In this document: positions 1,773 through 46,635 of the stretch, one piece after another
How positions within the stretch are numbered: position 1 is the first letter of the stretch
Layout of the letters: each line of letters begins with the position of its first letter
Program-made: the position numbers and the translations under genes
The notes under the pieces: model-generated
Told to the model about the DNA's origin: nothing
Databases searched by the model: none
Seen by the model: the letters and a program-made list of their open reading frames with translations, nothing else
Source: Massalongia carnosa
Taxonomy: Eukaryota
Assembly (NCBI GenBank): GCA_965645245.1
Contig: OZ287074.1
Location: forward strand, 1,984,001 to 2,048,000
DNA length: 64,000 nt
Direction: 5' to 3'

Positions 1773-1780
1773 ATTGAGAT

Positions 1781-25321: not shown

Positions 25322-25332
25322 TCGGTTGCCGA
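25322..25332. promoter_or_regulatory. AflR-type palindromic site TCGGTTGCCGA in the PKS/OAH divergent promoter
   Basis: Matches TCG-N5-CGA, the established AflR site; the same motif recurs in other cluster promoters. Confidence 0.65.
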
Positions 25333-25628: not shown

Positions 25629-27518
25629 ATGGTGTTCCTCACAATGTACCCCGAGGAATTTGAGCATACCAAGGAGCCATCCTATGACAAAGACATCCGT
25701 TGGCCACCAGTATTTCAACTTCAACCGTTTTCCTGCTTGACTTCATCATCAGAAAAACCCGAAACAGATGACGACTGCAGCAGCCAGGACGGAAGCGAAA
25801 TGGCGGGATTTGTATCATCAAAACACACAACTCCTCCCTCGGAAGATGAGGTTCCGCTGGGTAATTCCGTAGCCCTGGACAATGCGGATGCCACGATCAT
25901 CAAGCCAGCTCTTCTCCTACAGGAGTGGCCAGTATCCGGAGGGCAAATATCGGATACAGCGCAAATTCCGTCGACGAACTTTCTACCACCTATTGATCTG
26001 AAGCATCTGGGTTCTTTTGAGACTTCAGACGAACCTCTCTCATCCGGGGACATCATGGCTGAAAGTGAGATCTTTGTCTCAAGCAAGCAATTTCTTTCAG
26101 TAGAGACAGGTTTACTTGGTGAGTTCAGAGCCTGGTGACCGAATCTTCTTGCGATATACCACGTAACGGCCCTAACATTGGATTTCGCGTTTCTAGAAGA
26201 ATGCCCTGCTACTACAGGCACAACTGAATCGATCAATTCCAGCGAGACTATCGTGAAGCTACAGGATTCTGATGCCATCGTCAACAGCAAAACTGTTGAT
26301 CCTGCAGCATCCAGCGAGACTGTCATAGAGTTCGAGGATTCCGATACCATCGTCGACAGCAACCGTGTGAATCTCGCAGCATCCAGCGAGACAGTCCCAA
26401 AGTTAGAGGATTCTAATGCCATCATCGATAGCAACGGTGTGAATCCCGTAGCAGCCGAGAAGACTGAGAGACAGGAAGAGTTGAAGCTCCCAGCGAAGTC
26501 TCACTCACATGAAATAATATCGACTTCCGTCATCAAAGATAAAGATGGACAAGAGGGCGTCAACATCGAGGCTTCAACCGACGCGCCATTGGTTGCAATC
26601 TCCTGCCCCACAACATTCTCCGCTACAGATCCTCCATCGACCCGACTTCGTCATATGATTGCCCACTCCCCATCAATTATCCTTTGTCCGGGTGTGTATG
26701 ATGGTTTGTCGGCGCGGATCGCCCTTCATGTTGGTTTCAAAGGTATGTACATGACAGGCGCAGGTACCACGGCATCGTGCCTCGGGGCTTCGGACCTAGG
26801 AATCGCTCATCTTCATGACATGCAAACGAACGCCGCGATGATTGCCAACCTTCAACCCGACGGCCCCCCTCTGATCGCAGACATGGATACCGGCTACGGC
26901 GGGCCGTTGATCATCTCCCGTGCCGTCAAACAATACGCCCGTGCCGGTGTCGCGGCCTTCCACATTGAAGACCAGGTGCCTGAGAAACGCTGTGGCCATC
27001 TGTCGGGCAAAGAAGTTGTCGACATTGACACCTACCTTCGACGCATCCGAGCCTGCCTCGACGCGCGCGCCCAGATCCGAAGCGACATCATCATCATCGC
27101 GCGCACCGATGCTCTCCAATCTCGTGGATACGAAGAATGTGTCGCACGGCTGCGACGCGCTCGCGACCTCGGTGCCGACATGGGCATCCTGGAAGGCGTC
27201 TCCTCCAAGGAAACGGCGGCACAAGCAGTTAAAGATCTCGCACCGTGGCCGTTGTGCTACAACAGTGTTGAGAACGGGCACAGCCCGCTCATCACGGCGG
27301 CGGAGGCTCAGGCGATGGGATACCGGCTGATGATCTTCTCGTTCGCGGGGATTGCGCCAGCTTACATGGCGATTTTGGAGACGTTCACAAGGTTGAAGGA
27401 GCAGGGCGTGACGGGCAGCATGGTTGGACCGAAGAAGATTTTCGAGGTTTGTGGGTTGGAAGAGGAGATGAGAATTGATGAGGCTGCGGGCGGATCAGCA
27501 TTTGCGAAGGGTGTATGA
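25629..27518 (+). CDS. oahA: oxaloacetate acetylhydrolase (ICL/PEP-mutase superfamily) with a long acidic N-terminal extension; exons 25629-26118 and 26197-27518
   Basis: PGVYDGLSAR, YMTGAGT, IADMDTGYGG, FHIEDQ, KRCGHL, IIARTDA; IFSFA carries the Ser typical of OAH (Pro in 2,3-dimethylmalate lyase); the GTGAGT..CTAAC..CTAG intron (26119-26196) joins two ORFs in frame (about 603 aa). Confidence 0.8.
26238..26453 (+). repeat. 72-bp (24-aa) tandem coding repeat x3 in the OAH N-terminal extension
   Basis: TCCAGCGAGAC starts at 26238, 26310 and 26382; peptide SSET-x5-DS-x-x-I-[VI]-x-S. Confidence 0.9.
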
Positions 27519-28528
27519 TGCCCTGGCAGTCTTTCTTGCGTGTCACACGAAATGTTTTAGTAGATCAAATTAAGTTGTATTGGGTTAGCACAGCGCGTTA
27601 AAGTCTCAATCAACGACACCTTCATGCTTTGGCGTATTGTATTGAAACATGGCGGCTTTTCTAAAGATCATTATCTTGTAAAAACTCACATGGAAGTACC
27701 GAAAGCACATCATCATTGATACTATCGACAACCATAACTTTCATAGAAAAAACCTCGTGCGCTTTGTCGAGTCTTCAAAAGAAAAGGGTGGAGAGGAAAG
27801 AGCCGAAGACGACCCGTCAAATGTTGACATCATGAGAACGCGATAAGGAAGCCGATTGTATTGTACAGAGTACAGAGGCCTCCAAAAGGATGATCGACTG
27901 ATTAGCTAATTCATCAGTTGAGGATCTCGATCCGATGCAGGGATCGAGCCGTTCAGAAAAACATGCTCTCTGGAGCAACTGGCTACCTGCAAACCCACTA
28001 TACTAGAAAGATATCTATGTTTGAACGATGCGACGTTGCTATGTACGTTGACAGGGGTAAAAGCAGCCAACTTAACTAGCTGTGGTTAATGGATATCAGC
28101 CCAGCTACTAGTAAGGAACTAGAAATACCTACCTGCCCTTTCGGGCCCCGTTTCATGCTCTGCGGCGAATCCCATCAGGCACTGTATTTACGGATTTTCC
28201 CAGGTGATGAGCTGTCAGGTCGAGCGGCTGTCTCAGGCAGGGAACGAGGAAGGAGCAGAATGGATAGGTAGTACATTGCCCTCAGGTGATAAGTCTACAG
28301 GATTCGAAGGACGAAACAAGTTTAAATAGTACAAGTCTTTCGACAATAATCCGCCCATCCAGACCCATTTTTTGGTTCGCCATGCGCCACAATTACCTTA
28401 CATCCAACTGCATATTTCCAAGGCGTGACACACGCTAGCAAGCAACCAATTATCCCCTCATGACTTCCCCCTTGCTAGCGTGTCTCTGACACTGAGGCTC
28501 CCCTGTTTCCTTTTTGGCTTCATCGGGT

Positions 28529-29764
28529 TCACGAATTTCGTAACGCACTGGCAGTGTCATCGACGGCTTTCTTTAGCCTTTTCTTCAGGAGGCTCGTCAG
28601 CGCCGTGTAGATTCCCGTGTCCTCCCGCTCCTGGCAACCCAGACTGCAGTACCTCTCGGCGTACCTTTCGACCAGCGCTGCCGCCTTCCGCAATTCGTTC
28701 GATACGAGCTGCATCCGCATACGCTGTTCGTCCTTGGCATCCATTTTGTATGCGCCGATCGTTATAGGCGTGTCGCGGACAAACATCTCGGCCGAGGCGT
28801 CGGGGGAAGGAGATGATTGATGGGCGGATATGTCTGGGCGTATGAGGGTCTGGTATAGCGCGAGTATCTTGTCGATGATGAGAGAGAGCGTAAGATAGGA
28901 TTGTTGGGAGAGGGAGCAAGGGCAGGAGAGGAGCTGGTGGGCGTTCTCGACGGCGGATTTGTTGGTGATTAGAATTTGGTCCATAGAAGAGATGCTGGGT
29001 TCCATGGTAAGAGATGTGCTGCAGGGTTGGGAATTGAGGTTGAGGCTGTCCAGGGTGGAGGATGCCAGCCTGGTGCAGTCGTAGCGAAGGGACGGTTGGC
29101 TAATGTCGCTGGATGCGGGAGTAGGCATCGGGTTTGTAGGTAGCGGAAACTCGGCCGGGCTTGGAGTCTGCAGAGGTCCGATGCCCAGCACACGAGGAAA
29201 CTCGTCTTCAAAATTAAAGATGTCGTCATTTGATTTGCTTGGGGTGGACTGGCCCATGGGGGGTGGAGTCATATAGAGGAAATCCTGATCGAAGAGGTTC
29301 GAAGGCGTCATCGAAAGTTCCCTCGTTGTATATTCGCTCATGTCAGGCGTGAATTGTTGCCAGAAGCCGGACGTTCCCTCATCGTGCGTTGGAAGGGGCA
29401 TCTCCATCGTTGACAAGTCTTGAGCGAGGGGAAAGATCGATCCCACACCAGCATGATGAGAATCGAGCCTGGAAGGGTCGAGTCTTTCCTCCGCAGGCTT
29501 TGACAACCGCTTGCCATGCACAGCTTTCCGCCCGTTCACGGAGCTTGACAGGTCTCTCGATGCTGCTGGAGGTTTGCCTTTTCGTTGGGAAATGCTATAA
29601 TTGCACTCCAGACTATGTTTCTGGCAACGAATACAGATCGGTCGGCTCTGATCACACTTGGTCTTGGAGTTGGAGCAGGCATCGCAGGACATTCGGAGCT
29701 TCCGCGCTCGAACGCGTTCCTGCTTGCATCGAAGTAGCGATTGTTGAGAATTCTCGGTGTCCAT
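28529..29764 (-). CDS. AflR-like Zn(II)2Cys6 pathway-specific transcription factor
   Basis: CDACSNSKTKCDQSRPICIRCQKHSLECNY zinc cluster followed by SISQRKGK; C-terminal LLSCPCS..ITIGAYKMD..RMQLVSNEL resembling the AflR domain. Confidence 0.9.
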   Translation of the reverse strand: MDTENSQQSLLRCKQERVRARKLRMSCDACSNSKTKCDQSRPICIRCQKHSLECNYSISQRKGKPPAASRDLSSSVNGRKAVHGKRLSKPAEERLDPSRLDSHHAGVGSIFPLAQDLSTMEMPLPTHDEGTSGFWQQFTPDMSEYTTRELSMTPSNLFDQDFLYMTPPPMGQSTPSKSNDDIFNFEDEFPRVLGIGPLQTPSPAEFPLPTNPMPTPASSDISQPSLRYDCTRLASSTLDSLNLNSQPCSTSLTMEPSISSMDQILITNKSAVENAHQLLSCPCSLSQQSYLTLSLIIDKILALYQTLIRPDISAHQSSPSPDASAEMFVRDTPITIGAYKMDAKDEQRMRMQLVSNELRKAAALVERYAERYCSLGCQEREDTGIYTALTSLLKKRLKKAVDDTASALRNS

Positions 29765-30372
29765 CTTGGCAGAGTTTGGAGTAACGCAATCGTTGCCTGG
29801 AACATTGGGGATATCGCACCTCCAATATGGGTTTCTAGGTTCGCCAGATTATACATATCGGTCAGTACCCATGTCAATCGTCAGCGTGGGATTCAGGAAC
29901 AGTCAACGCCAAACGCCGATTCAGCTTCGCATGCACCGCCGCATCACTACCGTACCGTTTAGCAAGGCTTACTGCTGGCTACTGCCTTTGGACCCCATTG
30001 GGAACCTTTAAAAAATCCTTAATCTGGCATGCATCTGCATGCATTGTTATATGTTCTGTTGGCTATGCAAGAAATCGCGTGAGCTTTTAGTTCCAACTGC
30101 TGTGAGTATACTCCGCTAGATAGATGGGGAGCTCTCTGGTATCAAGGTACAGGAAACGCCACGCCAAGGATTCTAGTCGCATTGGTGCGATGCAGATCTA
30201 CGGCCCAGACTTCCTTGCACCGATTCCCCACCACGTGTCATAACCGATACTTTCACCGATTGTATTTACGGCGGCGGCCTGTGCCCTGTGTTAGCTCTTT
30301 CTCGAACCATTTGGGAGGGGCTCGGCTACGTTGAGGCTTAATTAAAGAGAAACCAAATCTACAACTATCAAT

Positions 30373-30383
30373 TCGGGAACCGA
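30373..30383. promoter_or_regulatory. AflR-type site TCGGGAACCGA upstream of the regulator (possible autoregulation)
   Basis: TCG-N5-CGA; its reverse complement TCGGTTCCCGA is identical to the site at 59540. Confidence 0.55.
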
Positions 30384-31287
30384 AAAATAGCCCCAGATTA
30401 GCAGGCCGTATTGCAACTCTCCAACTCTCCCTCGTATTCAAGCACGCAACGCTTGCGATGTGGAATGATGGTAGAATGGGAGTCGAGTGGAATTCCAAAC
30501 CATATGCAAGTGTTAATGAGGGTGAATGTTGGCGTATGAGGTTTAAAATAACGAAATAGCAGGTAACCTTGACACTTAGGTTTACAGCACAAGCTTCGAT
30601 GACTTCGATGACTAGTTTCTTGATGGGACTATTATGGTACTCGTACGTAGCATCACAAGCCCACGAACCATGTAAGAAAAGGCAACAAATCTCTAGGGTG
30701 AAAGATAGCGAAAGCTTGGTATACTTAAGAAGAGTAAGAATACACTTACAGAGTAAGGAATAACGTGAGCGAGATACTGCATTTAACCTCCGAGCTAACC
30801 CCCAATGGACTTCCAACAAGCCGCACGGCCACTGCTCAACGAATCTACTCTACTCTAGAATAGACGGTCGTAAAATAGCCCAACGTGCCAACCGAATCAT
30901 GAATCACGCTAACACGGTTGGCCATTCAGTAGAGTAAAGCCTCAGAGGTCATTTTGAAATTTAGAAAATCAAAAACCTCAAGAGGAATCAATACGTGATT
31001 CAGGAGGATCCACAGGTGATTCGGAAGATGTTTCAAAAGATGATCTAACACCAAAGTACTTGTAAATCAATTTCTGAACCATCTGTGAACTACCTGTGAA
31101 TCATCTCATGAATCGTCTCATACCTAGCCACAGTCTACATAAATAGGCTTCACCCTGAGCCTAATCCGGCAAGCCCTCCGACAATCCGCCAACAAGCCGC
31201 CGACAAGCCCACCGATAAGCCAAATTTGGAAGATCTCGGAGTGGAAACTATTGATAGCCATAGAACTCCTATCAAACACAGAAGAAA

Positions 31288-31353
31288 TAAACCGAATGTA
31301 AACCGAATGTAAACCGAATGTAAACCGAATGTAAACAGAATGTAAACAGAATG
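31288..31353. repeat. 11-bp tandem repeat TAAAC(C/A)GAATG x6
   Basis: Read directly; four copies with C, then two with A. Confidence 0.9.
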
Positions 31354-31771
31354 AGTTTCTGTTAGAAGGGAGACCCTCCTCCCAGTAAAGCTACCTTACA
31401 GTTCATCGTACGGATAGTACCTGCCAAGCGGTGAGAAAAATAATCAATATATGCAAACCGTGTGTGCCGCGATAATTTGGTGGGGTTACCTTCGATCTTA
31501 CCACCCACACCCCCAAAATTCATAACGGTACACTAGTTGTATGCCGTTGGCTTCATCGCCGCCCTGCTTGCGTGCTTGACTGATAATCGAATGAGGGTGT
31601 GATGAGTAATCCTACTCTCTTGCTGAAACGGAGAATGTATTCTACAAAGTCAGCTCCAAGGATACAGAGGGCGAGCCTTCTCTTTTCACGGATCCTGTCG
31701 GGTTCCAAAGGATTGATGACCGCTTTTCTTTTCTTTTGATTCCACAACTCGAGACAACAATGGGTACTGCT

Positions 31772-31782
31772 TCGGAACCCGA
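31772..31782. promoter_or_regulatory. AflR-type site TCGGAACCCGA, about 190 bp upstream of the beta-propeller gene
   Basis: TCG-N5-CGA in a promoter position. Confidence 0.55.
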
Positions 31783-31967
31783 CGACTTACCCACAGGAGG
31801 CGATCACAGAGTCGGCATGCAAGCTGATCAAAAACATATAAAGATCACGACGAGGTCGTCCATCATGAAGGTAGCACATCAGCACGCCCGATCACATCTC
31901 ACAAGCTCAAACAATTTCCAAACCCGACCAAACTCGTTTTAAACCACAATCACTTGGATCCTCTATC

Positions 31968-33056
31968 ATGGGGCTCTCACTTCGTTCAATCGCCGGATTT
32001 TCCTTACTTTCGCTGGCTTTGGCTCTACCCGCAAGCGAGATCAGTGCTCGACGGGCTGATCCTCTGCCTCTTCCGGTCGAAATAATCCACCAGTTTCCAC
32101 ATCCGACGTGGGTCCAGGACCTTGCCGTTCGTGCCGATGGAAAAGTCCTGGTCACGCTTCTTACCGCACCAGAACTCTATGAAATCGACCCCTTCGGAAA
32201 GAAAGACGCTACGCTGGTACACACCTTTCCAGACCATTTGTGCCTCACCGGCATAACCGAGACAACCCACGACGTCTTCTATGTTGCGGGCGGTAATGTC
32301 ACCGTCGTGCCAGCCGCCGGCGCGGCCACGACCACCAATTTTTCCCTAACAGGGAACAACGTGCCAGGCGCCTGGGATGTCTACAGAATCGACTTGACAC
32401 ATGATCACGCTCCTGCCAAGGTCAGCAAGGTTGCGCACTTGCCGCAAGCACTCAATATCGACGGAATGACGACCCTTGATGCCCATGCGGGCATACTCCT
32501 ACTCTCGGATTCCTTGGCTGGCGTGGTCTACAAACTCAACGTCAAAACTGGCGAATCCGCCATTGTCATTGATGACCCCACCATGAAATCTACCCCTGCC
32601 ATCGCGATCGGCATCCACGCCCTCAGGATTCGAGATGGCTCGCTGTTTTTCGACAATAGCGCGCAAGAAACGTTTGTCCGCATTCCCATTCATTCCGATG
32701 GGACGGCCGCCGGAGCCGCGGTCGTGCTCTCTACCAACATCAACAGCAACGGTTTCGCGTTTGACAGCAAGGGAGACGCATTCTTTACGGAAAACACCCC
32801 CAACGCGCTTGGATATGTACCCGTCGGAGGCGGGGAATCTACCGTGCTGGCCGGGGTACCCCTGACTGCTCCCTCATACTTGCCTGGCCCCGAGTCGTGC
32901 GAGTTTGGTAGAACGCGACTCGACTGTGAGACGTTGTACATCACGACCACGGGAGGTATTGCTTCGGGACTTGGCAATCTCACGCTGGGCGGGACGTTGT
33001 CGAAGGTCAACATCGGCAAAGCCGGATACTACAACAAAGGCTCCTTGTCGCTCTAA
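31968..33056 (+). CDS. secreted six-bladed beta-propeller protein (SMP-30/gluconolactonase/TolB-like fold)
   Basis: Intronless 362 aa; signal peptide; TWVQDLAVRADGKVLVT, LTGITE, IDGMTTL, LLSDSLAG, SNGFAFD, LYITTTGG blade-like motifs. Confidence 0.75.
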   Translation: MGLSLRSIAGFSLLSLALALPASEISARRADPLPLPVEIIHQFPHPTWVQDLAVRADGKVLVTLLTAPELYEIDPFGKKDATLVHTFPDHLCLTGITETTHDVFYVAGGNVTVVPAAGAATTTNFSLTGNNVPGAWDVYRIDLTHDHAPAKVSKVAHLPQALNIDGMTTLDAHAGILLLSDSLAGVVYKLNVKTGESAIVIDDPTMKSTPAIAIGIHALRIRDGSLFFDNSAQETFVRIPIHSDGTAAGAAVVLSTNINSNGFAFDSKGDAFFTENTPNALGYVPVGGGESTVLAGVPLTAPSYLPGPESCEFGRTRLDCETLYITTTGGIASGLGNLTLGGTLSKVNIGKAGYYNKGSLSL

Positions 33057-33507
33057 GCAGCCCCTGGCTCATACGCACGGCATCGCATCCATCGCTCGGA
33101 GGGAAGTGATTCCCATTGTGTCTGGTTCGGGAGCATTGAAGGCTCGACTTGAGAGGGAATCATTTGAAGGATGATGACAGGGAGGCATGGTTCAGATGTA
33201 CAGTAGACTAGCAAGCACATACGCGCACACGCTTTGCACGAATAACACCAAATCTTGCTCATATGACCTACAGTCTCATGATATGACAGCCTGATTGCCA
33301 TGGAAGATATGCATGCATTGTCAACTATTTCCTTTCGCATGATATGGCTACTTATCATCTGTCATCGCCAATCGGTTATTTTTATTCTTCGCTCATCCGT
33401 AAGAGTCGATCGTGAAGTAGTAGTAGTAGTAGTGTAAACCATCATGATTTCGAGCATGTAGATAATCCCTTTTACCATCTACAATACTCTGTAATGTTGT
33501 CACTCAC

Positions 33508-33616
33508 AGCAACAACAACAACAGCAACAACAACAGCAACAACAGCAACAACAGCAACAACAGCAACAACAGCAACAACAACAACAGCAACAACAACAAC
33601 AGCAACAACAACAACA
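33508..33616. repeat. (CAA/CAG)n compound microsatellite
   Basis: Run of CAA and CAG triplets read directly. Confidence 0.9.
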
Positions 33617-36600
33617 CGTATGTACATACAAGTGAGCAATCAAGTCCCACTAAAACAACAATCAGTTAATTAACTACCTCCCCCGAAAAATAAAAATAAA
33701 ACCTCCAGAATGTTTCCACACATCCAAACAATAATCTTGAGTGCATCATCATCTGTTTTGAAGCTGTGCTCGGTTCTCGGTTATCGATCGAATCTAGAAA
33801 TAGAGTGTGTACAAATACGTATGGATTACTCCGTAACTAGATGGAGGTTAAACCAGATAAGGTAATTACCTCACCGCTTCCCGCCCCCTCTCCCATTTCA
33901 TTCGCTGCCTGTTTTGCTATGTGTGGGTGTTTGCTGTGGCTAATGCGGCGGGATGAGGCTGGGATTAGAGGTGGCCCCATCAACCCTCCCTATCCTTATG
34001 CAGGGTACCTATCAGCGCACGCATTGATGTGTTAGTGTATTCCCGGGAGACCGTCTCTCATCTTGGCGTGGGTTTTTGTCCCCGGGGAAGGGGAAGGTGC
34101 TATGCCCATTTGCGGCATAGGTACGGAGTATAGGGATAGGGATAGTTAGGGATAAGGGTAGGGGTAGTGTATAAGGACATGGGTTCCTTCCTTGCAGCTG
34201 AGGTCTAACTAGTCAGTTTGGTACCAGGCATGTACACGAGCACAACAGCGAGGAAGGTAAAAATAGATATAGGTGTTGCGAATGCCAAGCCAGCTGGATC
34301 ATATCTGACGTAATATGCGAATGCCTTTGCGTATTTTACTGATATGGGAATAGTTAATTTCTGGTATCTTCGATGTTTAGAAACTCAGGTCTATATAGTA
34401 GACATTCGAGGAGAATCTCTAATGTTCTGTGATCAACATGTATATAGCATCACTCCTACGCATAGCCTAAATCGCAATAATCAGCACTCTGCCACCTATT
34501 TTCTATGCATTGGGTCCATCATTCTCCATCCATCCCTCCTATTTTAAACAATAGGCATCTCAAATAAATGAACACAGCGTGTCACTTATCCGTCTACCTA
34601 ACATGTTGTATGGGGTCACTTTTCTGCACGGGTACCTTTACGACTCGGATGTTTTAGACGCCAGGCAGGTTAGATTGCAGGTACCTTGTACTCAAAGTCG
34701 AGAGGTACTTAACCAGAGTAGGTAAATGAGGATTAAATGAGACTCTCTGTGCTCCGTACATACGTTGGGCCATTTCTTTATTTGTACGCCCGCCTGATTG
34801 TTGGTGTGCCGATCGTCTGCCTTGCAGGGCGTGGCTTAGCTTATACAATATGTACATGGTACAAACCTAGTTAACTACGGTGTGGCTTGTTGACCGGTTG
34901 GTTGGATGACTGCCTGAGACATCCAACCCCAACTCAAGGAAGGGTTGAAAATACTTCGAAACGTCTAGACTTTTAGCGAAGCAGGGGCCGGGTCTAGTCT
35001 TATCAACGAACCAACCGACCAACTTGATTGGTTAGTTCATCGGAGATACTTGCTCTATTAAGTTCACATCACATCACATCACACCACATCACATCACAAG
35101 AGATGCAACATAACATAACACAACATAAAACGCAACATAATCATAATGCTTCGTTTCATTGCATTCGATGCTAAAGGAAATGGCGAGTAGCTGGATACCT
35201 ATGGGTAAATTTAGCTGTTCGCGGGCTTTGTATCGGTATCCGAGGAGAGAGACAGAGAGACAGAAAGCCAGACAGACCAACAGACAGACTGAAAGGAATT
35301 GTGCTTGATGATAATGATGATGATGATGCTGCGTCGTACGTAGCTGGAGCTGCAACTGAAGCCGGCTGCACTCGTCGGTTGGGTGTGTATGTGTATGTAT
35401 GTATGTATGTACTCACTCCTTTGTGATGCCGTTACACCTCGTACTTGATGCTTGCTACTCATCTTCTTATTCTCACTTTCTCTCGAGATCAAACATTCAA
35501 GAAAAGATGCAGAAATTCAAAACAACCAGACTGCAATCGACAAAAAGTTTTATGATCTGTCGCTGAGGATTTCTGCGTCTCGCTCGACTTTGTTGTAGTT
35601 TTCTTTCGTCAGTGTATTCCCGTCATTTGTTTTTTTCGCTATGGCGATGCAATGACAAATGTCGGGAAAGTAAAATTCGGAAGATGTGATTGATGGAAGA
35701 ATTGTAGTTTCGAGGTTTTTGGGAAAAGAGGAAGAATGCATGTGACAGCAGCGTTCGATCCAAAACTCTCAACAGCATAACAGAAGAACTTATGTAGCGA
35801 TAATAGGATTCTATGTACAGCGAAATACAGAGCTACAGAGCTATAGAAGTAATAAGTACAGAAGTAGAAACGACACAAGTACAGAAAGACATAGAATTAC
35901 GGGAGTTATAGAGTTCCCAAAAGTGTAGAAGTAAAAAAAAAAAAAAAATTAGTACAAGCAAACAAAACCAAGCACCTAACCAGAAAACACCCGTTGCTTT
36001 TTCTCACCCCCCCCCCCCTATCCTCCCCGTCAGGAACCCAACGCTCGAGAAAGAAGTAAACATAACCTAACACACCAATATAATTACACATCGCGTTCCG
36101 TTCCGTGCATATGGATAGGTGGATGAACGAATGAGAGAGGAGCAGTAGAAGAAGAAGAAGAAGAAGAAGATGTAGGATACTCGGAACGATTGAAGAATGC
36201 TAGTTTTTAAGGGGGGAGAAGAAATGCCATCAATGTTTTTGGGGCATTTAGGGCATTTTGAGGGGGGGGGGGGGGTAAGTCAATATGTATCGTGCATGCT
36301 TGAGGTGCTGATGATGATAGCGGTAACGATAGTGGTAGTGACAGCGACAGTGGCAATGGGGAGAAAAATAAAAGAGGAGAAAGAGGACAGGAAGAAAAAG
36401 AATGAGTATGTATAGATGGCTCTTAGACCTAACAAGAACGAGAATGAGAACAGCAATGGTCATGAATATGGTATGCCATAAATGTACGTACATAGGCCCA
36501 AAACTCTCTCTATTCTCTCTATTCTTTTTCAATTAATCATTCAATCAATCAGGAAAAAACAAACAAACATAAGCTCTACCTCTAAAAACCGACGGTCTAT

Positions 36601-36865
36601 GTATCTTACAGGACAGGACGCATTCCACAATCGAGCACGCTACAAGGGCCGGCCACACACATAATTCGCAAGGTGTGGATCTGATATGAAATGCAACAAA
36701 AGGGGGGGGGGGAGGGGGGAATGGAGGAGATGGTCAAAACGCGCTAACGTGTAGAAGTACTTTTTCCTCCAAAATGGACCCGATCAAGCCTCTCCCTCTC
36801 CCCCGAACCTGAATATATGTTTGGGTACTAGTAAATCAATGGGACCGGTTTCCTTTTTCGGGGCT

Positions 36866-38687
36866 TCATCCGAGAAATTTCGTGATTCTCTGCCACAAGT
36901 TTCCTCGCAAAGACTTTCCACCACGCGCCGGCTTTTTCTCGGCGGAAGTTCCCCTCTCGGGTGATACGGCCGGGGATTGCGGCTTGACAGGAGGAGATTC
37001 CTTCTCGACCGCTTGCGGTTGCCTTCCGCTCATGCTTTGCGCGACTTGTCGCCGCTGAACCTTTCCCGTGGCGGTCTTCGGCATCTGCTCGATGTAGTAC
37101 ACCTGCATACCACCAGTCAGTTACTTGAGTCCAAACACGATCAGGCCGCGTGTGGGGGGAATTGGCGTCGGCGCAAGCGAACATACCACTTTGGGGATCT
37201 TGAACTTGGCCGCCCTTTTCTCAAACCATGCCAGGAGCTCTGCAGTTGGCAGCTGAGCGCCCTCCTGCAGCACAATCGCCACACCGACATCCTCCCCGTA
37301 CAGGTCGTCCTTGATGGCAAAACTGACGGCCTCTTGGATCTTGGGATGTTGTACTAGAAGGTTGTCGATCTCGACCGGGCTGATCTTCTCGCCTCCCTTG
37401 TTGATCAGTTCCTTGATTCGGCCGGTCAGGAAAAGATAGCCGTCTTTGTCGAGATAGCCTTGATCGCCGGTGCGCAGGTACCCGGCTGGCGTGAAGGGGG
37501 AAGCCACAACTTTCGGATCGCCCAGATAGCCTGATGTTACGTTTTCGCCTTTGACGGAGACTTCCCCAATCTGGCCATGAGGCAGCGGGTTGCCCGCTTC
37601 GTCCTTGATCTTCAGGGTCACACCCTGCGGGATTCCGACGGAACCGGGCTTGCGAATTCCCGGGGGAAGAGGGTTTGAGGTCATCTGGTGAGCGGCTTCT
37701 GTCATGGCGTAAGCTTCTATGACCGGAGCGTCGAAGAAGGTTTCGAGTCGTTGATGAACGGCCGGCGCGAGTGGCGAGGAACACGATCGAACGAACCGAA
37801 TCGGTGGCGTGGGGGATGGACGCTCGTTCTTGAGCAAGATTTGGTGGATTGTTGGAACGGCGGTAAACCAATTCGCCTTGAAATTGACAAAATCGCGCCA
37901 AAACTCGGATGCTGAAAAGCGGGCAGGAACAATGACCGATCCACGGCTCATCAACGGAGCAAGAAAGCCAGCTAGCAGCCCATGAACATGGAACAACGGC
38001 ATCACCAGAAGCGTTCGGTCTGACGATGTCAAATCATACGTTTTTTGGATATTGACCATCGTTCGGCACAGATTCTTGTGGGTTAACGGCACCTGGTACG
38101 GGATCAGTTGAGTGCAAAGAGCGACCAGCTGCACACGAGAAACATACTGCTTTGGGTCGACCAGTGGTTCCGCTGGTGTGCAGAACCAACGCCACATCCT
38201 GCGTCTCGGGCGAGTTCACGCTTGCCGGCGCTCGACTCGCGAGACCTCTCAGCTCGATGGTTGGCAGGGTGACTTCACACCAATCCCACGATATCTCTGC
38301 TACCGCAGCGTTACACGCTCGTGCCGCCTTGATGGCCTCGCCATTCTCCGCGATGGCACCTTTCGGCACCAACACCACGGCAGCGTTCAGGTCGTTCAAG
38401 TAGAATTCGAATTCGTTTTGCTGGTATGCAGGGTTAAGCGGTGCACAGGTTGCGCGCTGGAGCGATGTGGCCAGGAAAGCGACCACACATTCGAGACTGT
38501 TCGGAAGAGCAATTGCCACGGCATCCTTGTGGGAGATCCCGATGGCCGCTAGTTTCTGTTGGAAGCTGAGAACATGTCGCCGTAGCTCTCGATGCGAAAG
38601 AACGATGGGGGCGGGTTCCCGTGGGATGAGTATTGCCGTAGCATCGATCTCGTGCGAGAGGCAGTCTGAAAGGGTTGACGATGTCAT
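36866..38687 (-). CDS. oxalate-CoA ligase-like acyl-CoA synthetase (Pcs60/AAE3 family), 3 exons
   Basis: ATG at 38687; APLNPAY..EFEFYL; AMP-binding LVLHTSGTTGRPK; VMPLFHVHGL; RFVRSCSSPLAP; EAYAMTEAAHQMTSNPLP; RTGDQG; ELINKGGEKISPVEID; MPKTATGKVQRR. Confidence 0.88.
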
Positions 38688-38849
38688 GGCTGTACACAAG
38701 TGAAGGACGAGGCACGATTGCGAGAATGAGAAGACTCGTTGCAAGAATATGAGTTGATTTGTATGAACGACGAGTCTTTTCCTCGAACATGAAACATCCA
38801 CGTATCGATATTGACCAAATTGGAAACCCGAGTACCGTTGAGGAGGCTT

Positions 38850-38860
38850 TCGGGTACCGA
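38850..38860. promoter_or_regulatory. AflR-type site TCGGGTACCGA in the CoA-ligase/TPP-lyase divergent promoter
   Basis: TCG-N5-CGA within the extended near-palindrome CTTTCGGGTACCGAAAG. Confidence 0.65.
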
Positions 38861-39352
38861 AAGTGAGGCGATGCCGTCAGTGTCCCCATTTAGTTAGTGA
38901 GTACTTATCCACCCACAAGTGCCACGCCCTTCTGGACTGTGCCTCGCATGGTGAACTACCCGTAACATATACAGATACCCTGTACTCTGTACTCTCTCAC
39001 GACAGAGTACTGTATGAACAAAGTTACACGGTACAGAGTACCTCTTCCGTTCCGTACCAAGTACTCTATGTACAGAGATAAGTTACAAGCAATCCCGATA
39101 GAGCAACCGTTGGACGGACGGCTGAAGAGATGGGATGTTGGCGACTCGACAGAGACTTGACCGTCGGTATGCGGTGCTCTTAAAATAAACAGGCAGGTGG
39201 TGATTGTGTCGATTCAAGTCAAGAACGTATTCTTTGCTCGTGTGCACGTTTCATATCGTTCAGGTCGAACTGTCTATTGTACTCGTACGCTGGTTTTTCC
39301 AATTTCTCCTACTCGACTGCAGACCTCACCCGCAAACTCCATCACCACCAGT

Positions 39353-41255
39353 ATGCATTCTTCGTCAACCTCAACCAAGAGTGGTGCTGCGCTCGTAGCC
39401 AACGCGTTGCACCAGTTGGGCGTCAAGGTCATATTCGGTCTCGTGGGCATCCCCGTCGTGCAGATTGCCGAAGAAGCCACGGCGCTGGGCATCCGATTTA
39501 TCGCATTTCGCAACGAGCAAGCCGCAAGCTATGCGGCGACGGCGTATGGATACCTCATGGGCAAACCTGGAGTCTGTCTCGTGGTCGGTGGTCCAGGCGT
39601 CCTTCATGCCATGGCGGGGATCGGGAACTCGTCGGCGAATGCGTTCCCCATGCTTCTTCTGGCGGGCTCGTGCGAAACGCAGTTGGTCACTCGAGGGGCT
39701 TTCCAAGAGCTCGATGCAATTTCCCTGCTCACTCCACATACCAAGACGGCGATACGAGCGACAACGGAGTCGATCTCGTATGCTTTGACCCATGCATATC
39801 GGGTGGCTGGTTATGGACGCCCGGGAACAGGATTCGTGGATCTGCCGGCCGATGTAATCCAAGGCGAGAGCGAACAGCAATCGACATGCCTTGTCCAGGC
39901 TCCCCCTCGAGCCGGAGCCGACCCGGAGCAGCTGGCACGGATCGCGGAGCTTGTCAAAACCGCTAGCGCCCCGCTCATTGTCGTTGGAAAGGGCGCGGCC
40001 TATGCACGAGCGGAGGCGACCATTCGAGCTCTCGTCGACCAGACAAGCATACCCTTTCTGCCGACCCCGATGGGCAAAGGAGTCCTTCCAGATTCTCATC
40101 CACTGAATGCGTCGTCCGCGCGAAGCGCAGCTCTCAAGAACGCGGACGTGGTCCTGCTTCTCGGAGCTAGACTCAACTGGATCTTGCACTTTGGAGATGA
40201 CTCGAAATGGAGCGCCAACGTCACATTCATTCAGGTGGATTCGTCGGCAGAGGAAATCGGGCATAACAACCGCTCGAATCCGGAACAGGGTCTCATCGGA
40301 GATATCAAGGTCGTCACCGCTCAACTGACCGCCGTTCTAGGCGGCTGGCGATATGACCTGAGTTTGCCGTACATGGCCGTCACGATCCGACAAAGCAGAG
40401 AGAAGAACGAACGAAACGCAGCCAAAGCCGCCAAACGGCACTCAGAACCGATGAACTATCATCGCGCTTTTGATGTCATCAAACTCACCCTCCAGGCGCT
40501 GTCACCCATCGAAGCAGGAAACGTCGTGTACGTCTCCGAAGGCGCCAACACCATGGATATCTCGCGCAGCGTGTTTGCCGTGGAGCATCCCCGCCGTCGC
40601 CTCGACGCAGGCACCTACGCCACCATGGGTGTGGGGCTCGGCTACGCCATCGCCGCGCATTGCGCCTACAACCTGCCGGATCCGGAGGGCGACGCGGGAG
40701 CCTCGACGATGGCGTCGCCGAGGAAGAAAATCGTCTGCCTGGAAGGCGACTCGGCGTTTGGCTTCTCCATGGCCGAAGTCGAGACCATGGCGCGATACCG
40801 TATGGACGTGCTGATCTTCGTGCTCAACAACGGCGGCATCTACCACGGGGATTGCGCCGAAGGGGACGAATGGCTGAGGCTGCAGGCCGCCACGAGCGAT
40901 GGCAGGCCCGCTGCCCGGGGCCTGCGGAGCACCAGCCTGGGCTGGCAGGTCGGCTACGAGAAAATGGCCGAGATGTGCGGCGGAAAGGGCTTCCTGGTCC
41001 GAACGCCGGAGGAACTCGCGCAAGCGACCGAGGAGGGCTTCAAGGCCGACGTGCCGGTCGTCGTGAACATCGTGATCGAGTCGGGCCACGAGAAGACCTT
41101 GGTCAGTCACCCATCCATCCATTCTCGTGCCTTATAGGCGCTCAATCTTATCCAATCCACTCCCCCCATGGTCTTTTTTTTTTCGCTAACTGTTCCTGAA
41201 GGAGTTTGCGTGGCAGAAAAAGTCGTCCGACCGGAAAGCGGAGCCTAAGAGTTAG
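39353..41255 (+). CDS. TPP-dependent 2-hydroxyacyl-CoA lyase / oxalyl-CoA decarboxylase family enzyme; intron 41102-41201
   Basis: ATG at 39353; IFGLVGIPV, FRNEQAASYAA, VVGGPGVLHA, GAFQELD, FLPTPMGKG, LGARLNWILHFG, SEGANTMDI, RLDAGTYATMGVG, TPP motif EGDSAFGFS..NNGG; last exon EFAWQKKSSDRKAEPKS*. Confidence 0.9.
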
Positions 41256-46624: not shown

Positions 46625-46635
46625 TCGGTTCACGA
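46625..46635. promoter_or_regulatory. AflR-type site TCGGTTCACGA upstream of the MFS gene
   Basis: TCG-N5-CGA; a near match (reverse complement TCGGTTGCCGT) lies at 45303-45313 upstream of the nitroreductase. Confidence 0.55.

What the first reader, a model, noticed from the sequence alone, without database searches (positions are those of the whole stretch)
25629..41255. Oxalate make-activate-decarboxylate module (OAH, oxalate-CoA ligase, TPP lyase) embedded in an aromatic polyketide cluster
Seen: an OAH-type gene divergent from the PKS, and a divergent pair made of a Pcs60/AAE3-type CoA ligase and an HACL/oxalyl-CoA decarboxylase-type TPP enzyme; both shared promoters carry the cluster's AflR-type site. 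Established: OAH cleaves oxaloacetate to oxalate plus acetate, AAE3/Pcs60 form oxalyl-CoA, and OXC-type enzymes give formyl-CoA. These are normally scattered primary-metabolism genes. Inference, three options: (a) the module supplies oxalyl- or formyl-CoA as an unusual acyl donor for the Tri3-like or LovD-like transferases, or for a TPP acyloin-type C1 addition; (b) the OAH-like enzyme excises a C2 unit as oxalate from a ring-opened polyketide and the pair disposes of it; (c) oxalate secretion is coupled to pigment or toxin production. I do not recall a characterised NR-PKS cluster with this trio, but cannot search to confirm.
Basis: partly seen in the sequence, partly recalled or inferred. 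Interest (0 to 1): 0.9.

Follow-up and report, generated by a model that had tools for sequence, protein, structure and literature searches.

The report
Oxalate enzyme trio inside pigment cluster
A lichen fungus keeps three intact genes for making oxalate and breaking it down via CoA inside an aromatic-pigment gene cluster, an arrangement conserved across three fungal classes whose purpose is still unknown.

Summary
Observation confirmed. The window comes from a lichen-forming fungus (Lecanoromycetes).

**The three genes**
- OAH-type lyase: 25629-27518.
- Pcs60/AAE3-type oxalate-CoA ligase: 36866-38687, minus strand.
- HACL/OXC-type TPP enzyme: 39353-41255.

They lie between a wA/PksP-type NR-PKS with an AflR-like regulator and its tailoring genes.

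**New evidence**
- The linkage recurs in Psora, Oculimacula, Melanomma and a Cenococcum-like contig. In one contig it sits in a different, citrinin-like PKS cluster.
- A palindrome, TCGGNNNCCGA, marks cluster promoters including both trio promoters: window 7 sites against 0.9 expected, L002 9 against 0.16. It lies upstream of the TPP gene in 7 of 7 ligase-paired loci and 2 of 59 unpaired ones.
- Paired or linked TPP genes lack the peroxisomal PTS1 (0 of 8). Stand-alone ones carry it (24 of 24). The paired ligases lack it too.

**Reading**
This is a co-regulated, probably cytosolic branch: oxaloacetate to oxalate to oxalyl-CoA to formyl-CoA. Its role is unresolved. I favour oxalate co-production with a detoxifying valve. 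Thioester supply for tailoring remains possible.

No RNA data were found. No report of this arrangement appeared in 7 literature searches.

The parts
18160..24956 (-). Non-reducing PKS with domains SAT-KS-AT-PT-ACP-ACP-TE, of the wA/PksP/Alb1 (naphthopyrone) type. Read as several ORFs split by introns.
   Evidence: Pfam domains. Named relatives called PksP/Alb1/wA at 55-61% identity and the Psora crenata orthologue at 81%. Best solved relatives are PksA 8cg4 and CTB1 6fij.
25322..25332 (.). TCGGTTGCCGA, an AflR-type palindromic site in the shared PKS/OAH promoter, 307 bp upstream of the OAH ATG.
25629..27518 (+). OAH-type lyase gene. Exons 25629-26118 and 26197-27518, 603 aa. About 310 aa of poorly conserved N-terminal extension precede the catalytic domain.
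   Evidence: Close relatives of 628-636 aa keep the extension.
26238..26453 (+). Three tandem copies of a 72-bp unit, in frame (24 aa each), inside the N-terminal extension of the OAH-like protein.
   Evidence: 79% matches, no indels. Translation.
28532..29848 (-). Zn2Cys6 transcription factor with an AflR domain. It is the candidate binder of the palindromic sites.
   Evidence: Pfam AflR 6.6e-17 and Zn_clus 2.2e-10.
31875..33056 (+). ORF for a beta-propeller protein related to the EupfF/PycR1 hetero-Diels-Alderases. A palindromic site lies upstream at 31772.
   Evidence: PDB 7x36 2.9e-22 and 7x2n 7.4e-17. No Pfam family found.
36866..38687 (-). Pcs60/AAE3-type oxalate-CoA ligase gene. Exons 38687-38148, 38092-37187 and 37102-36866, 560 aa. 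The protein ends -FLG, so it has no PTS1.
38850..38860 (.). TCGGGTACCGA palindromic site in the shared ligase/TPP promoter, 163 bp from the ligase ATG and 503 bp from the TPP ATG.
   Evidence: A site of the same form lies in the same promoter of 7 of 7 ligase-paired loci elsewhere.
39353..41255 (+). HACL/oxalyl-CoA decarboxylase-type TPP enzyme gene. Exons 39353-41101 and 41202-41255, 600 aa. The protein ends -PKS, so it has no PTS1.
47297..48940 (+). MFS transporter (MFS_1, TRI12-like). A TCGGTTCACGA site lies upstream at 46625.
49710..51719 (-). Multicopper oxidase (laccase), read as several exons.
   Evidence: Pfam Cu-oxidase, Cu-oxidase_2 and Cu-oxidase_3. Site at 52541 in the promoter shared with the hydrolase gene.
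53058..53999 (+). FrsA-like / S9-S15 alpha/beta hydrolase.
   Evidence: A 78%-identical counterpart lies next to the trio in L002.
55718..56981 (-). Serine beta-lactamase-fold protein (PF00144, LovD/EstB-like).
   Evidence: Counterpart in L002 at 46% identity. Site at 57431 in the promoter shared with the FMO gene.
57676..58971 (+). FAD-dependent monooxygenase.
   Evidence: Counterpart in L002 at 68% identity.
60110..60856 (+). EthD-domain protein. A palindromic site lies upstream at 59540.
   Evidence: Counterpart in L002.
61935..63309 (-). Tri3-like acyltransferase. A palindromic site lies upstream at 63737.
   Evidence: Pfam Tri3 3.2e-08. Site.

Best explanation
The three genes form a conserved, co-regulated sub-module of a wA/PksP-type aromatic polyketide (pigment) cluster.

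**Proposed steps**
1. An AflR-like Zn2Cys6 factor binds TCGG-N3-CCGA palindromes. These lie in the bidirectional promoters of the PKS/OAH genes, the ligase/TPP genes and the tailoring genes. This step is inferred from where the sites lie.
2. The OAH-type lyase splits oxaloacetate into oxalate and acetate. This rests on homology and intact motifs.
3. The Pcs60-type ligase makes oxalyl-CoA. This rests on homology.
4. The TPP enzyme decarboxylates oxalyl-CoA to formyl-CoA and CO2. This rests on homology and on its fixed pairing with the ligase.

**Location.** The ligase and the TPP enzyme of this lineage have lost the peroxisomal PTS1 that stand-alone fungal orthologues keep. The branch therefore probably runs in the cytosol, beside OAH and the PKS.

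**Role.** This part is inference. When the cluster is switched on, oxalate is produced together with the pigment. The ligase and decarboxylase act as a cytosolic safety valve that keeps free oxalate from building up in the producer, much like a self-protection pair in a toxin cluster.
For: **Family assignments.**. The OAH motifs DTGYGG, EDQ and KRCGH are intact, and a serine sits in IFSFA where the dimethylmalate lyase 3fa3 has proline.

**Linkage elsewhere, read from locus tags and contig lengths**.
- Psora crenata: PKS _003414, OAH _003415, TPP _003418.
- Oculimacula yallundae: PKS _6027, TPP _6028, OAH _6030.
- Melanomma pulvis-pyrius: all three on one 42.7-kb contig.
- Usnochroma carphineum: OAH _003281, TPP _003283.
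- Two Xylographa species and Toensbergia: OAH and TPP lie 4 to 11 genes apart.

**Linkage elsewhere, read from DNA.** L002 is Cenococcum-like. Its order is OAH, ligase, TPP, FrsA-like hydrolase, beta-lactamase-fold gene, FMO, EthD, NR-PKS.

**The cis-element.**
- Window: 7 sites against 0.90 expected.
- L002: 9 sites against 0.16 expected. They lie upstream of OAH, in the ligase/TPP promoter, and upstream of the hydrolase, FMO, EthD and PKS genes.
- Within 700 bp upstream of the TPP gene the site is present in 7 of 7 ligase-paired loci and 2 of 59 others. One of those two, L037, is a truncated copy of the paired locus L038.

**PTS1.**
- 0 of 6 paired and 0 of 2 OAH-linked loci end in a PTS1.
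- 24 of 24 stand-alone loci with a readable last exon do.
- The named linked proteins with a readable last exon (Psora, Usnochroma, Oculimacula, Melanomma) lack it.
- All 10 named Leotiomycete proteins outside the linked clade whose last exon is modelled correctly have it, among them Monilinia, Lachnellula and Coleophoma.
- The five distinct paired ligases whose last exon could be read (window, L001/L002, L007, L015, L038) also lack a PTS1.

**Phylogeny.** In the best trees the linked, PTS1-less copies fall on one side of a single branch. SH-aLRT support for that clade is 90.
Against: - No expression data: no RNA run is listed for this organism, so co-induction is inferred from sites alone.
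- Making and destroying oxalate under one regulator looks futile. The 'valve' idea is my inference and is not tested.
- The fate of formyl-CoA is unknown. No formyl-CoA transferase or formate dehydrogenase family was found in the window among the Pfam-scanned subset (about 137) of the 309 ORFs of 70 aa or more.
- The same trio lies in a different NR-PKS cluster in L017 (SAT-KS-AT-ACP-CMeT-R, 2OG oxygenase, FSH1 hydrolase). I found no palindromic site there.
- In L007 the pair borders housekeeping genes on one side: ribosomal protein S4e and an FAD-linked oxidase. The trio may therefore be a unit of its own rather than part of this pigment pathway.
- Whether the linked TPP is a separate paralogue is unresolved. 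Forcing the Oculimacula group together with the stand-alone Leotiomycete clade is not rejected (p-AU 0.23).
- The correlation of PTS1 loss with linkage traces to a single branch, so it counts as one event and not as many independent ones.
- The tight motif was defined after I had seen the hits.
Confidence: 0.45

Rival explanations
1. Thioester supply for tailoring. The module exists to deliver an activated C2 or C1 unit to the polyketide. Either oxalyl-CoA or formyl-CoA serves as an acyl donor, or the TPP enzyme uses its bound formyl anion (made from oxalyl-CoA) to add one carbon to a carbonyl of an intermediate, as an acyloin-type carboligation.
For: - Tight and ancient co-localisation and shared promoter sites with the PKS and tailoring genes. 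These are easier to explain if the product needs the module.
- Move to the cytosol, where the PKS works.
- The trio also occurs in a cluster whose PKS ends in a reductase domain and so should release an aldehyde, a natural acceptor for carboligation (L017).
- The best solved relatives of the TPP enzyme include chains named 2-hydroxyacyl-CoA lyase/synthase (8vzd, 8vza).
- Acyltransferase-like genes lie in the window: Tri3-like and beta-lactamase-fold.
- An engineered route from OAH through oxalyl-CoA synthetase to an acyltransferase is in print for dencichine (PMC9485241; I saw only the search listing and the start of the abstract).
Against: - The Tri3-like gene does not travel with the trio, and the LovD-like gene does so only in L002: absent from L017 and L007, and no Tri3-like gene in the 21.7 kb held of L002.
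- The window's PKS ends in a thioesterase and not a reductase, so it offers no obvious aldehyde.
- The TPP enzyme is about as similar to stand-alone PTS1-bearing orthologues (69-73%) as to linked ones of other classes. That gives no sign of a changed active site.
- I know of no oxalylated or formylated aromatic polyketide from these fungi. This is from recall and is not a search result.
Confidence: 0.2
2. Neighbour only. The trio is an old primary-metabolism island for oxalate homeostasis. It lies beside polyketide clusters by descent or by chance and plays no part in the polyketide pathway.
For: - The trio is the constant element while its surroundings change: a wA-type cluster in the window and L002, a citrinin-like cluster in L017, and housekeeping genes on one side in L007.
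- None of the 31 named species appears twice among the 120 listed TPP hits. The linked copy may therefore be that genome's only copy and do the ordinary job.
- Orthology with the stand-alone copies is not rejected (p-AU 0.23).
Against: - The same palindrome marks the trio's promoters and the PKS and tailoring promoters in two distant lineages: 7 against 0.9 expected in the window and 9 against 0.16 in L002. It is nearly absent upstream of stand-alone TPP genes (2 of 59).
- In the window and in L017 the trio genes are interleaved with cluster genes, not merely adjacent to them.
- The link to the same PKS type recurs in three classes.
Confidence: 0.15
3. C2 salvage. OAH recovers an extra acetate from cytosolic oxaloacetate, for example the by-product of ATP-citrate lyase, to feed the PKS. 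The ligase and decarboxylase dispose of the unwanted oxalate.
For: - The role does not depend on the polyketide scaffold, which fits the trio's presence in two different NR-PKS cluster types.
- All three proteins lack peroxisomal signals.
- The net chemistry follows from the established reactions of the three families.
Against: - It is energetically costly. The ligase spends ATP to AMP only to burn a by-product.
- No acetyl-CoA synthetase gene lies in the cluster.
- No tool result speaks for it directly.
Confidence: 0.1
4. The OAH-like enzyme cuts a C2 unit, as oxalate, out of a ring-opened polyketide intermediate, and the ligase/TPP pair removes it.
For: An FAD monooxygenase and a laccase that could oxidise rings lie in the cluster.
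Against: - The lyase scores higher against true OAH (419 bits) than against dimethylmalate lyase (364 bits).
- It keeps every motif that aligns with the OAH active site, including the serine marker.
- Known members of this family act on small dicarboxylates (established knowledge).
Confidence: 0.05

Closest known systems
CoA-dependent oxalate catabolism: oxalyl-CoA synthetase (yeast Pcs60, plant AAE3) followed by oxalyl-CoA decarboxylase
   Same: - The same two enzyme families, in the same order.
- The ligase's best solved relatives are Pcs60 (8aff), Lathyrus oxalyl-CoA synthetase (6qjz) and 5ie0.
- The TPP enzyme's best solved relatives are OXC/HACL chains.
   Different: - Here the two genes form a fixed divergent pair under a Zn2Cys6-type palindrome.
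- Both proteins lack a PTS1. That yeast Pcs60 carries one is from recall. That stand-alone fungal TPP orthologues carry one is shown.
- They sit with an oxalate-forming enzyme inside a PKS cluster.
- A 2024 review of fungal oxalate metabolism (PMC11045627; I read only the matching passages) describes the CoA route for bacteria only.
Oxaloacetate acetylhydrolase of oxalate-secreting fungi (C. parasitica 3lye; Aspergillus/Penicillium OahA)
   Same: - Same fold, same catalytic motifs and the serine marker.
- 3lye is the best solved match, at 1.8e-124.
   Different: - The protein is 603 aa, with an N-terminal extension of about 310 aa that includes three 24-aa repeats.
- The Eurotiales proteins are 326-338 aa and form a separate long branch.
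- The gene shares a promoter with a PKS.
AflR-regulated clusters (aflatoxin/sterigmatocystin type)
   Same: - A Zn2Cys6 regulator with an AflR domain.
- TCG-N5-CGA-type sites in the cluster's promoters. The AflR consensus itself is from recall.
   Different: - The PKS is of the wA/PksP type and not PksA-like in its named relatives.
- The regulon appears to include three genes of primary-metabolism type.
Conidial-pigment and bis-naphthopyrone clusters (A. fumigatus pksP/ayg1/abr; Fusarium aurofusarin)
   Same: - A wA/PksP-type NR-PKS with tandem ACPs and a TE.
- A laccase, an FAD monooxygenase, an EthD-domain protein, an FrsA-like hydrolase and an MFS pump.
- That EthD corresponds to AurZ and the FrsA-like hydrolase to Ayg1 is from recall and was not tested.
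   Different: - No scytalone dehydratase or naphthol reductase was found in the window.
- None of those clusters is known to me to hold OAH, an oxalate-CoA ligase or OXC (recall, plus 7 literature searches without a hit).
Engineered OAH + oxalyl-CoA synthetase + acyltransferase route to dencichine (PMC9485241)
   Same: The same 'make oxalate, activate it' logic as the first two steps here.
   Different: - It is a synthetic pathway in E. coli that ends in an acyl transfer and has no decarboxylase.
- I saw only the search listing and the start of the abstract.

Membership tests
Oxaloacetate acetylhydrolase (OAH class of the PEP mutase/isocitrate lyase superfamily) | PEP mutase/ICL fold | tested here: met
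   Pfam PEP_mutase 5.4e-32 and ICL 1.2e-15.
Oxaloacetate acetylhydrolase (OAH class of the PEP mutase/isocitrate lyase superfamily) | Closer to a proven OAH than to sister lyases | tested here: met
   3lye OAH 419 bits; 3fa3 dimethylmalate lyase 364 bits; 2-methylisocitrate lyases 143 bits or less.
Oxaloacetate acetylhydrolase (OAH class of the PEP mutase/isocitrate lyase superfamily) | Metal-binding and gating-loop motifs (DTGYGG, EDQ, KRCGH), plus the serine marker where dimethylmalate and methylisocitrate lyases have proline | tested here: met
   In the alignments the query reads MIFSFA, 3lye reads MIFSFA and 3fa3 reads IIFPFA. The motifs are invariant in 16 relatives. That this serine marks the OAH class is recalled from Joosten et al. 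2008, which I did not read here.
Oxaloacetate acetylhydrolase (OAH class of the PEP mutase/isocitrate lyase superfamily) | Oxaloacetate hydrolase activity | not testable with these tools
   Needs an enzyme assay.
Pcs60/AAE3 oxalate-CoA ligase | AMP-binding fold with oxalate-CoA ligases as nearest characterised relatives | tested here: met
   Pfam AMP-binding. 8aff 1.9e-113, 6qjz 7.1e-101 and 5ie0 3e-94, against malonyl-CoA synthetase 2.4e-41 (the query was the second exon only).
Pcs60/AAE3 oxalate-CoA ligase | Peroxisomal PTS1, as in yeast Pcs60 (recalled) | tested here: not met
   The protein ends -FLG. The paired ligases of L001/L002, L007, L015 and L038 also lack a PTS1.
Pcs60/AAE3 oxalate-CoA ligase | Specificity for oxalate | not testable with these tools
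   Needs an enzyme assay.
HACL / oxalyl-CoA decarboxylase family of TPP enzymes | Three TPP-enzyme domains, with OXC/HACL as nearest solved relatives | tested here: met
   Pfam TPP_enzyme_N, _M and _C. The twelve best PDB hits are OXC or HACL/HACS, 1.6e-126 to 2e-101.
HACL / oxalyl-CoA decarboxylase family of TPP enzymes | Peroxisomal PTS1, as in stand-alone fungal orthologues | tested here: not met
   The protein ends -PKS after the last intron. 24 of 24 stand-alone loci with a readable last exon end in a PTS1, against 0 of 8 paired or linked loci.
HACL / oxalyl-CoA decarboxylase family of TPP enzymes | Decarboxylase (OXC) versus lyase (HACL) versus carboligase activity | tested here: inconclusive
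   The solved relatives carry both names at nearly equal scores. Only the fixed pairing with an oxalate-CoA ligase points to OXC.
AflR-type regulated polyketide cluster | Cluster-resident Zn2Cys6 factor with an AflR domain, and its palindromic sites in the cluster's promoters | tested here: met
   (AflR domain). (site enrichment, all sites between 25322 and 63737).
AflR-type regulated polyketide cluster | Co-expression of the member genes | not testable with these tools
   No RNA holder is listed. The runs laid are DNA contigs.
wA/PksP-type (naphthopyrone) NR-PKS cluster | SAT-KS-AT-PT-ACP-ACP-TE architecture and nearest named relatives of that type | tested here: met
   (names such as 'conidial pigment polyketide synthase PksP/Alb1' at 55-61% identity).
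wA/PksP-type (naphthopyrone) NR-PKS cluster | Identity of the product | not testable with these tools
   Needs chemistry.

The most novel reading that the evidence does not exclude
Fungi evolved a dedicated cytosolic lineage of oxalyl-CoA synthetase and an OXC/HACL-type TPP enzyme, fed by a cluster-resident OAH. This lineage would put an activated oxalyl or formyl unit into aromatic polyketides. It could do so by acyl transfer, or by TPP-dependent one-carbon addition to a polyketide carbonyl or aldehyde. That would be a natural counterpart of the engineered OXC/HACS carboligations and of plant oxalyl transfer, and it would point to an unrecognised class of C1- or C2-decorated pigments in lichens, ectomycorrhizal fungi and plant-associated fungi.
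Probability: 0.18. Interest if true: 0.9.

Novelty: new variant of a known kind. Interest (0 to 1): 0.68.

Why it matters
- **Oxalate biology.** Oxalate shapes lichen biology (calcium oxalate deposits), mineral weathering and fungal plant disease. How fungi control it is poorly known. If an AflR-type cluster regulator drives an OAH gene together with a pigment PKS, oxalate output is wired into secondary metabolism.
- **A fungal CoA route.** The ligase/TPP pair shows that filamentous fungi hold a CoA-dependent oxalate route. The 2024 review I consulted assigns that route to bacteria. Here it appears in a form that has lost its peroxisomal signal.
- **A usable marker.** Pairing, palindrome and PTS1 loss go together, which gives a simple sequence signature for finding such modules in other genomes.
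- **Enzymes.** If the module feeds the polyketide, these TPP enzymes would be natural C1-transfer catalysts of interest for synthetic one-carbon chemistry.

Tried and rejected
- **Whole genome.** None is held for this window. I could not count paralogues of the three genes in this organism.
- **Earlier findings of the scan.** Nothing by place or by sequence.
- **RNA.** No RNA holder is listed. The four runs laid were DNA contigs without splice joints. They confirm the gene order in a second study's sample (X4) but say nothing on expression.
- **Loose AflR pattern.** TCGNNNNNCGA is not clearly enriched: 26 against 16.7 expected, and 3 of 100 shuffles reach it. I therefore rely on the tighter forms, which I chose after seeing the hits.
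- **L017.** No shared CGG-type palindrome in its intergenic DNA.
- **Phylogeny.**
  - Linked TPP copies form one clade in the best trees.
  - The alternative that joins the Oculimacula group to the stand-alone Leotiomycete clade is not rejected (p-AU 0.23). Paralogy against orthology stays open.
  - Only one independent contrast links pairing with PTS1 loss.
- **OAH tree** (121 rows, last 300 residues). Linked copies are spread through one large clade. They do not separate from unlinked ones, so it gave no help on paralogy.
- **ORF 42181-43269.** Nothing useful in the PDB or the protein atlas. It overlaps a high-copy repeat.
- **No AflR-like gene** in the 21.7 kb held of L002.
- **Literature.** Seven searches found no paper describing OAH, an oxalate-CoA ligase and OXC/HACL in a fungal PKS cluster. 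Passages of the naphthalenone, biruloquinone and cristazarin cluster papers mention none of the three. The library lacks most subscription journals.
- **** failed on a reference that contained stop codons. I repeated it without that item.

Full report
**1. What is in the window**

The window is fungal, and its genes have introns. The best named relatives of its proteins are from lichen-forming Lecanoromycetes: Psora crenata, Alectoria sarmentosa, Usnochroma carphineum, Toensbergia and Xylographa. No whole genome is held for it.

I scanned a chosen subset (about 137) of the 309 stop-to-stop ORFs of 70 aa or more against Pfam. Left to right this gives:
- Transposase remnants, a GH5 gene, a UstYa-domain ORF and KR-domain fragments (1-12 kb).
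- A NACHT-ankyrin NLR gene (13.1-16.5 kb, minus strand).
- A non-reducing PKS, SAT-KS-AT-PT-ACP-ACP-TE (18.2-25.0 kb, minus strand).
- A PEP-mutase/ICL-family gene (25.6-27.5 kb, plus strand).
- A Zn2Cys6 factor with an AflR domain (28.5-29.8 kb, minus strand).
- An ORF related to the EupfF/PycR1 beta-propeller enzymes (31.9-33.1 kb; PDB 7x36, 2.9e-22).
- A gene-poor stretch with simple and high-copy repeats (33-37 kb).
- An AMP-binding ligase (36.9-38.7 kb, minus strand) and a TPP enzyme (39.4-41.3 kb, plus strand).
- ORFs without a family (41.5-45.8 kb).
- An MFS pump, a laccase, an FrsA-like hydrolase, a beta-lactamase-fold protein, an FAD monooxygenase, an EthD protein and a Tri3-like acyltransferase (47-63 kb).

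**2.

The lyase gene:
- It needs one intron (26119-26196; GT..AG with a ctaac branch site), because the long ORF holding the catalytic domain has no in-frame ATG upstream of the domain.
- The joined frame is open and gives 603 aa.

The ligase gene:
- It has three exons and gives 560 aa.

The TPP gene:
- It has a short last exon.
- I found it because well-annotated relatives end '...KKLEFAWQK...', while read-through models end in varied unrelated sequence.

Family assignments:
- The lyase matches C. parasitica OAH (3lye, 1.8e-124, 419 bits). That is better than dimethylmalate lyase (3fa3, 364 bits) and far better than methylisocitrate lyases (143 bits or less).
- In those alignments it shares DTGYGG, EDQ and KRCGH. 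It has serine in '...MIFSFA...', where 3fa3 has proline. As I recall from Joosten et al. 2008, which I did not read here, that serine marks the OAH class.
- The ligase's four best solved relatives are all oxalate-CoA ligases (8aff 1.9e-113). Malonyl-CoA synthetase follows at 2.4e-41.
- The TPP enzyme's twelve best solved relatives are oxalyl-CoA decarboxylases or 2-hydroxyacyl-CoA lyases/synthases (1.6e-126 to 2e-101). Acetolactate synthases follow at 1e-48 or weaker.
- Sequence alone does not separate decarboxylase from lyase, because both names occur among the top hits at nearly the same score.

**3. The promoter sites**

- Both shared promoters carry a TCG-N5-CGA site, at 25322 and 38850.
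- The loose pattern is not convincingly enriched: 26 against 16.7 expected, and 3 of 100 shuffles reach 26.
- Most hits share a tighter palindrome. TCGGNNNCCGA occurs 7 times against 0.90 expected, with 0 of 100 shuffles reaching 7. TCGGTTNNCGA occurs 8 times against 0.47.
- I defined both tighter forms after seeing the hits, so the window's own statistics are generous.
- All sites lie between 25322 and 63737 and none lies in the first 25 kb.
- They fall in the PKS/OAH promoter, upstream of the beta-propeller ORF, in the ligase/TPP promoter, upstream of the MFS gene, in the laccase/hydrolase and beta-lactamase/FMO promoters, and upstream of the EthD and Tri3-like genes.

**4. The linkage is conserved**

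- Psora crenata: PKS _003414, OAH _003415 and TPP _003418 on one 32.4-kb contig.
- Oculimacula yallundae (Leotiomycetes): PKS _6027, TPP _6028, OAH _6030.
- Melanomma pulvis-pyrius (Dothideomycetes): all three on one 42.7-kb contig.
- Pleomassaria and Lentithecium: all three on one scaffold each.
- Usnochroma: OAH _003281 and TPP _003283.
- Two Xylographa species and Toensbergia: OAH and TPP lie 4 to 11 genes apart.
- Not linked: Coleophoma cylindrospora and Cudoniella.

I then fetched 80 metagenome loci around TPP relatives and searched them with the window's proteins.
- A Pcs60-type ligase at 51-76% identity sits divergently next to the TPP gene in L001, L002, L007, L015, L019, L038 and L060.
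- OAH is present as well in L001, L002, L016 and L017.
- L002's TPP is nearly identical to that of Cenococcum geophilum. Its order is OAH, ligase, TPP, FrsA-like hydrolase (78% to the window's), beta-lactamase-fold gene (46%), FMO (68%), EthD, and then the SAT domain of an NR-PKS. This is the window's gene set in a compact, differently ordered form.
- Most other loci with 10 kb of flank hold a TPP gene alone.

**5. The cis-element travels with the pair**

- L002 has 9 TCGGNNNCCGA sites against 0.16 expected. They lie upstream of OAH, in the ligase/TPP promoter, and upstream of the hydrolase, FMO, EthD and PKS genes.
- Across all loci with at least 400 bp upstream of the TPP gene, the palindrome is present within 700 bp in 7 of 7 paired loci and 2 of 59 others. 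One of those two, L037, is a truncated copy of the paired locus L038.
- The background over all loci is 39 sites in 958,540 bases.
- This test was made on sequences that played no part in defining the motif. I regard it as the strongest evidence that the pair belongs to the regulon of a Zn2Cys6 factor.

**6. Loss of the peroxisomal signal**

- After locating the last exon in each locus, 24 of 24 stand-alone TPP genes with at least 2.5 kb of upstream flank end in a PTS1 (-AKL, -SKL, -TKL and the like). In 16 more the exon was not found.
- 0 of 6 paired and 0 of 2 OAH-linked genes have one.
- Among 17 loci with too little flank to judge pairing, 15 have a PTS1. The two that lack it carry the same tail as L038.
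- Named proteins agree. All 10 named Leotiomycete proteins outside the linked clade whose last exon is modelled correctly end in a PTS1 (Phlyctema, two Lachnellula, two Coleophoma, Tricladium, Venustampulla, Monilinia, Stromatinia, Amylocarpus, Mollisiaceae).
- Psora, Usnochroma, Alectoria, Oculimacula and the Dothideomycetes do not. The window's protein ends -PKS.
- The paired ligases also lack a PTS1: window -FLG, and L001/L002, L007, L015 and L038 likewise. Some carry a hydrophobic C-terminal stretch.
- The linked form of the pathway is therefore predicted to work outside peroxisomes. Localisation itself is not shown.

**7. One lineage or one gene in two settings?**

- In a 97-row FastTree and a 41-row IQ-TREE tree, the linked PTS1-less copies fall on one side of a single branch.
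- In one search the linked clade has SH-aLRT 90 and the stand-alone Leotiomycete clade 93. Together they form a clade at 100.
- Oculimacula, a Leotiomycete, sits with the linked copies rather than with the other Leotiomycetes. That hints at paralogy or transfer.
- The constrained tree joining its group to the stand-alone clade is not rejected (p-AU 0.23).
- Pairing and PTS1 loss each need only one change on the tree, so their association is one event and not repeated evidence.
- None of the 31 named species appears twice among the 120 listed TPP hits, which leans towards one copy per genome.
- The OAH tree did not help.

**8. A second cluster context**

In L016/L017 the TPP gene (no PTS1), an OAH gene and a Pcs60-type ligase are interleaved with a different cluster:
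- an NR-PKS with a C-methyltransferase and a reductase domain;
- a 2OG oxygenase;
- a Zn2Cys6 factor;
- an FSH1 hydrolase, which makes it citrinin-like.

I found no palindrome there. In L007 the pair borders an old-yellow-enzyme gene, ribosomal protein S4e and an FAD-linked oxidase on one side. So the trio, or the pair, is the constant element and its surroundings vary.

**9. How it most likely works**

Shown:
- three intact genes of the stated families;
- conserved linkage;
- a shared palindrome;
- loss of the PTS1.

Inferred from the established reactions of the families: oxaloacetate gives oxalate plus acetate, oxalate gives oxalyl-CoA, and oxalyl-CoA gives formyl-CoA plus CO2, under an AflR-like regulator and outside peroxisomes.

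The physiological role is open.
- I rank first co-production of oxalate with the pigment, with the ligase and decarboxylase as a cytosolic safety valve (0.45 for the whole statement). The narrower claim, that this is a conserved and co-regulated part of the cluster, I hold at about 0.8.
- Second is thioester supply or TPP carboligation (0.2).
- Third is a primary-metabolism island that is only a neighbour (0.15).
- Fourth is C2 salvage (0.1).
- Last is excision of oxalate from a polyketide (0.05).

**10. Comparison with what is known, and novelty**

- Each enzyme is an ordinary member of a known family, with two departures: no PTS1 on the ligase and the TPP enzyme, and a long repeat-bearing N-terminal extension on the lyase.
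- What appears new is the assembly. It combines an oxalate-forming enzyme with the two-step CoA route, fixed as a divergent pair, carrying the cluster's palindrome, and conserved with a wA-type PKS across three classes.
- Seven full-text searches found no description of it.
- The 2024 review of fungal oxalate metabolism gives the CoA route for bacteria only (passages read).
- The library lacks most subscription journals, and I could not query MIBiG, so prior description cannot be excluded.
- I rate it a new variant of a known kind, with interest 0.68.

Noticed in passing
window 26238-26453: Three in-frame copies of a 72-bp unit encode 24-aa repeats in the N-terminal extension of the OAH-like protein. 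Close relatives of 628-636 aa keep a similar extension. More distant ones have shorter, poorly conserved ones. Its role is unknown.
   Followed up: partly
window 34005-34671 and 42676-43999: Contig depth in four DNA runs is roughly 40 to 100 times that of the flanks. These are high-copy repeats, and they lie inside the cluster. The ORF at 42181-43269 overlaps the second one.
   Followed up: no
L017:860-21722 (L016 is a shorter copy of the same sequence): The same three oxalate genes are interleaved with a citrinin-like cluster: an NR-PKS with CMeT and reductase domains, a 2OG oxygenase, a Zn2Cys6 factor and an FSH1 hydrolase. Its TPP groups with that of Xylographa.
   Followed up: partly
L001 about 4100-4369, L002 about 7760-8031, L007 about 2050-2297, L015 about 450-666 (minus strand): The paired ligases carry C-terminal extensions after the PKTATGKVQRR motif. 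Each includes a hydrophobic stretch that looks like a possible membrane tail anchor. The window's own extension is not clearly hydrophobic.
   Followed up: no
window 31875-33056: An ORF with no Pfam family matches the solved hetero-Diels-Alderases EupfF (2.9e-22) and PycR1 of tropolone-sesquiterpenoid pathways. It has a palindromic site upstream at 31772.
   Followed up: partly
window 13133-16505: A NACHT/NPHP3_N plus ankyrin-repeat NLR-type gene lies directly left of the PKS. It probably marks the cluster's left border.
   Followed up: no
window 562-2102, 7214-7714, 10275-11075: Tc5/DDE transposase remnants, a UstYa-domain ORF and two ORF fragments with PKS ketoreductase-domain matches. The last may be the remains of another PKS.
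   Followed up: no
C-terminal region of TPP relatives: Just before the last intron, most linked copies read ESG, and Psora reads ESGR. Most stand-alone Leotiomycete copies read EAG. There are exceptions: Xylographa EAG, Oculimacula ECG and Mollisiaceae ESG. As I recall, this segment is the lid over the active site in bacterial OXC. I did not test that.
   Followed up: no
L067-L078 (several loci): The most distant TPP relatives (44-55% identity) have a different AMP-binding gene (24-42% identity to the window's ligase) upstream on the same strand. This is another ligase/TPP arrangement, possibly in other organisms.
   Followed up: no
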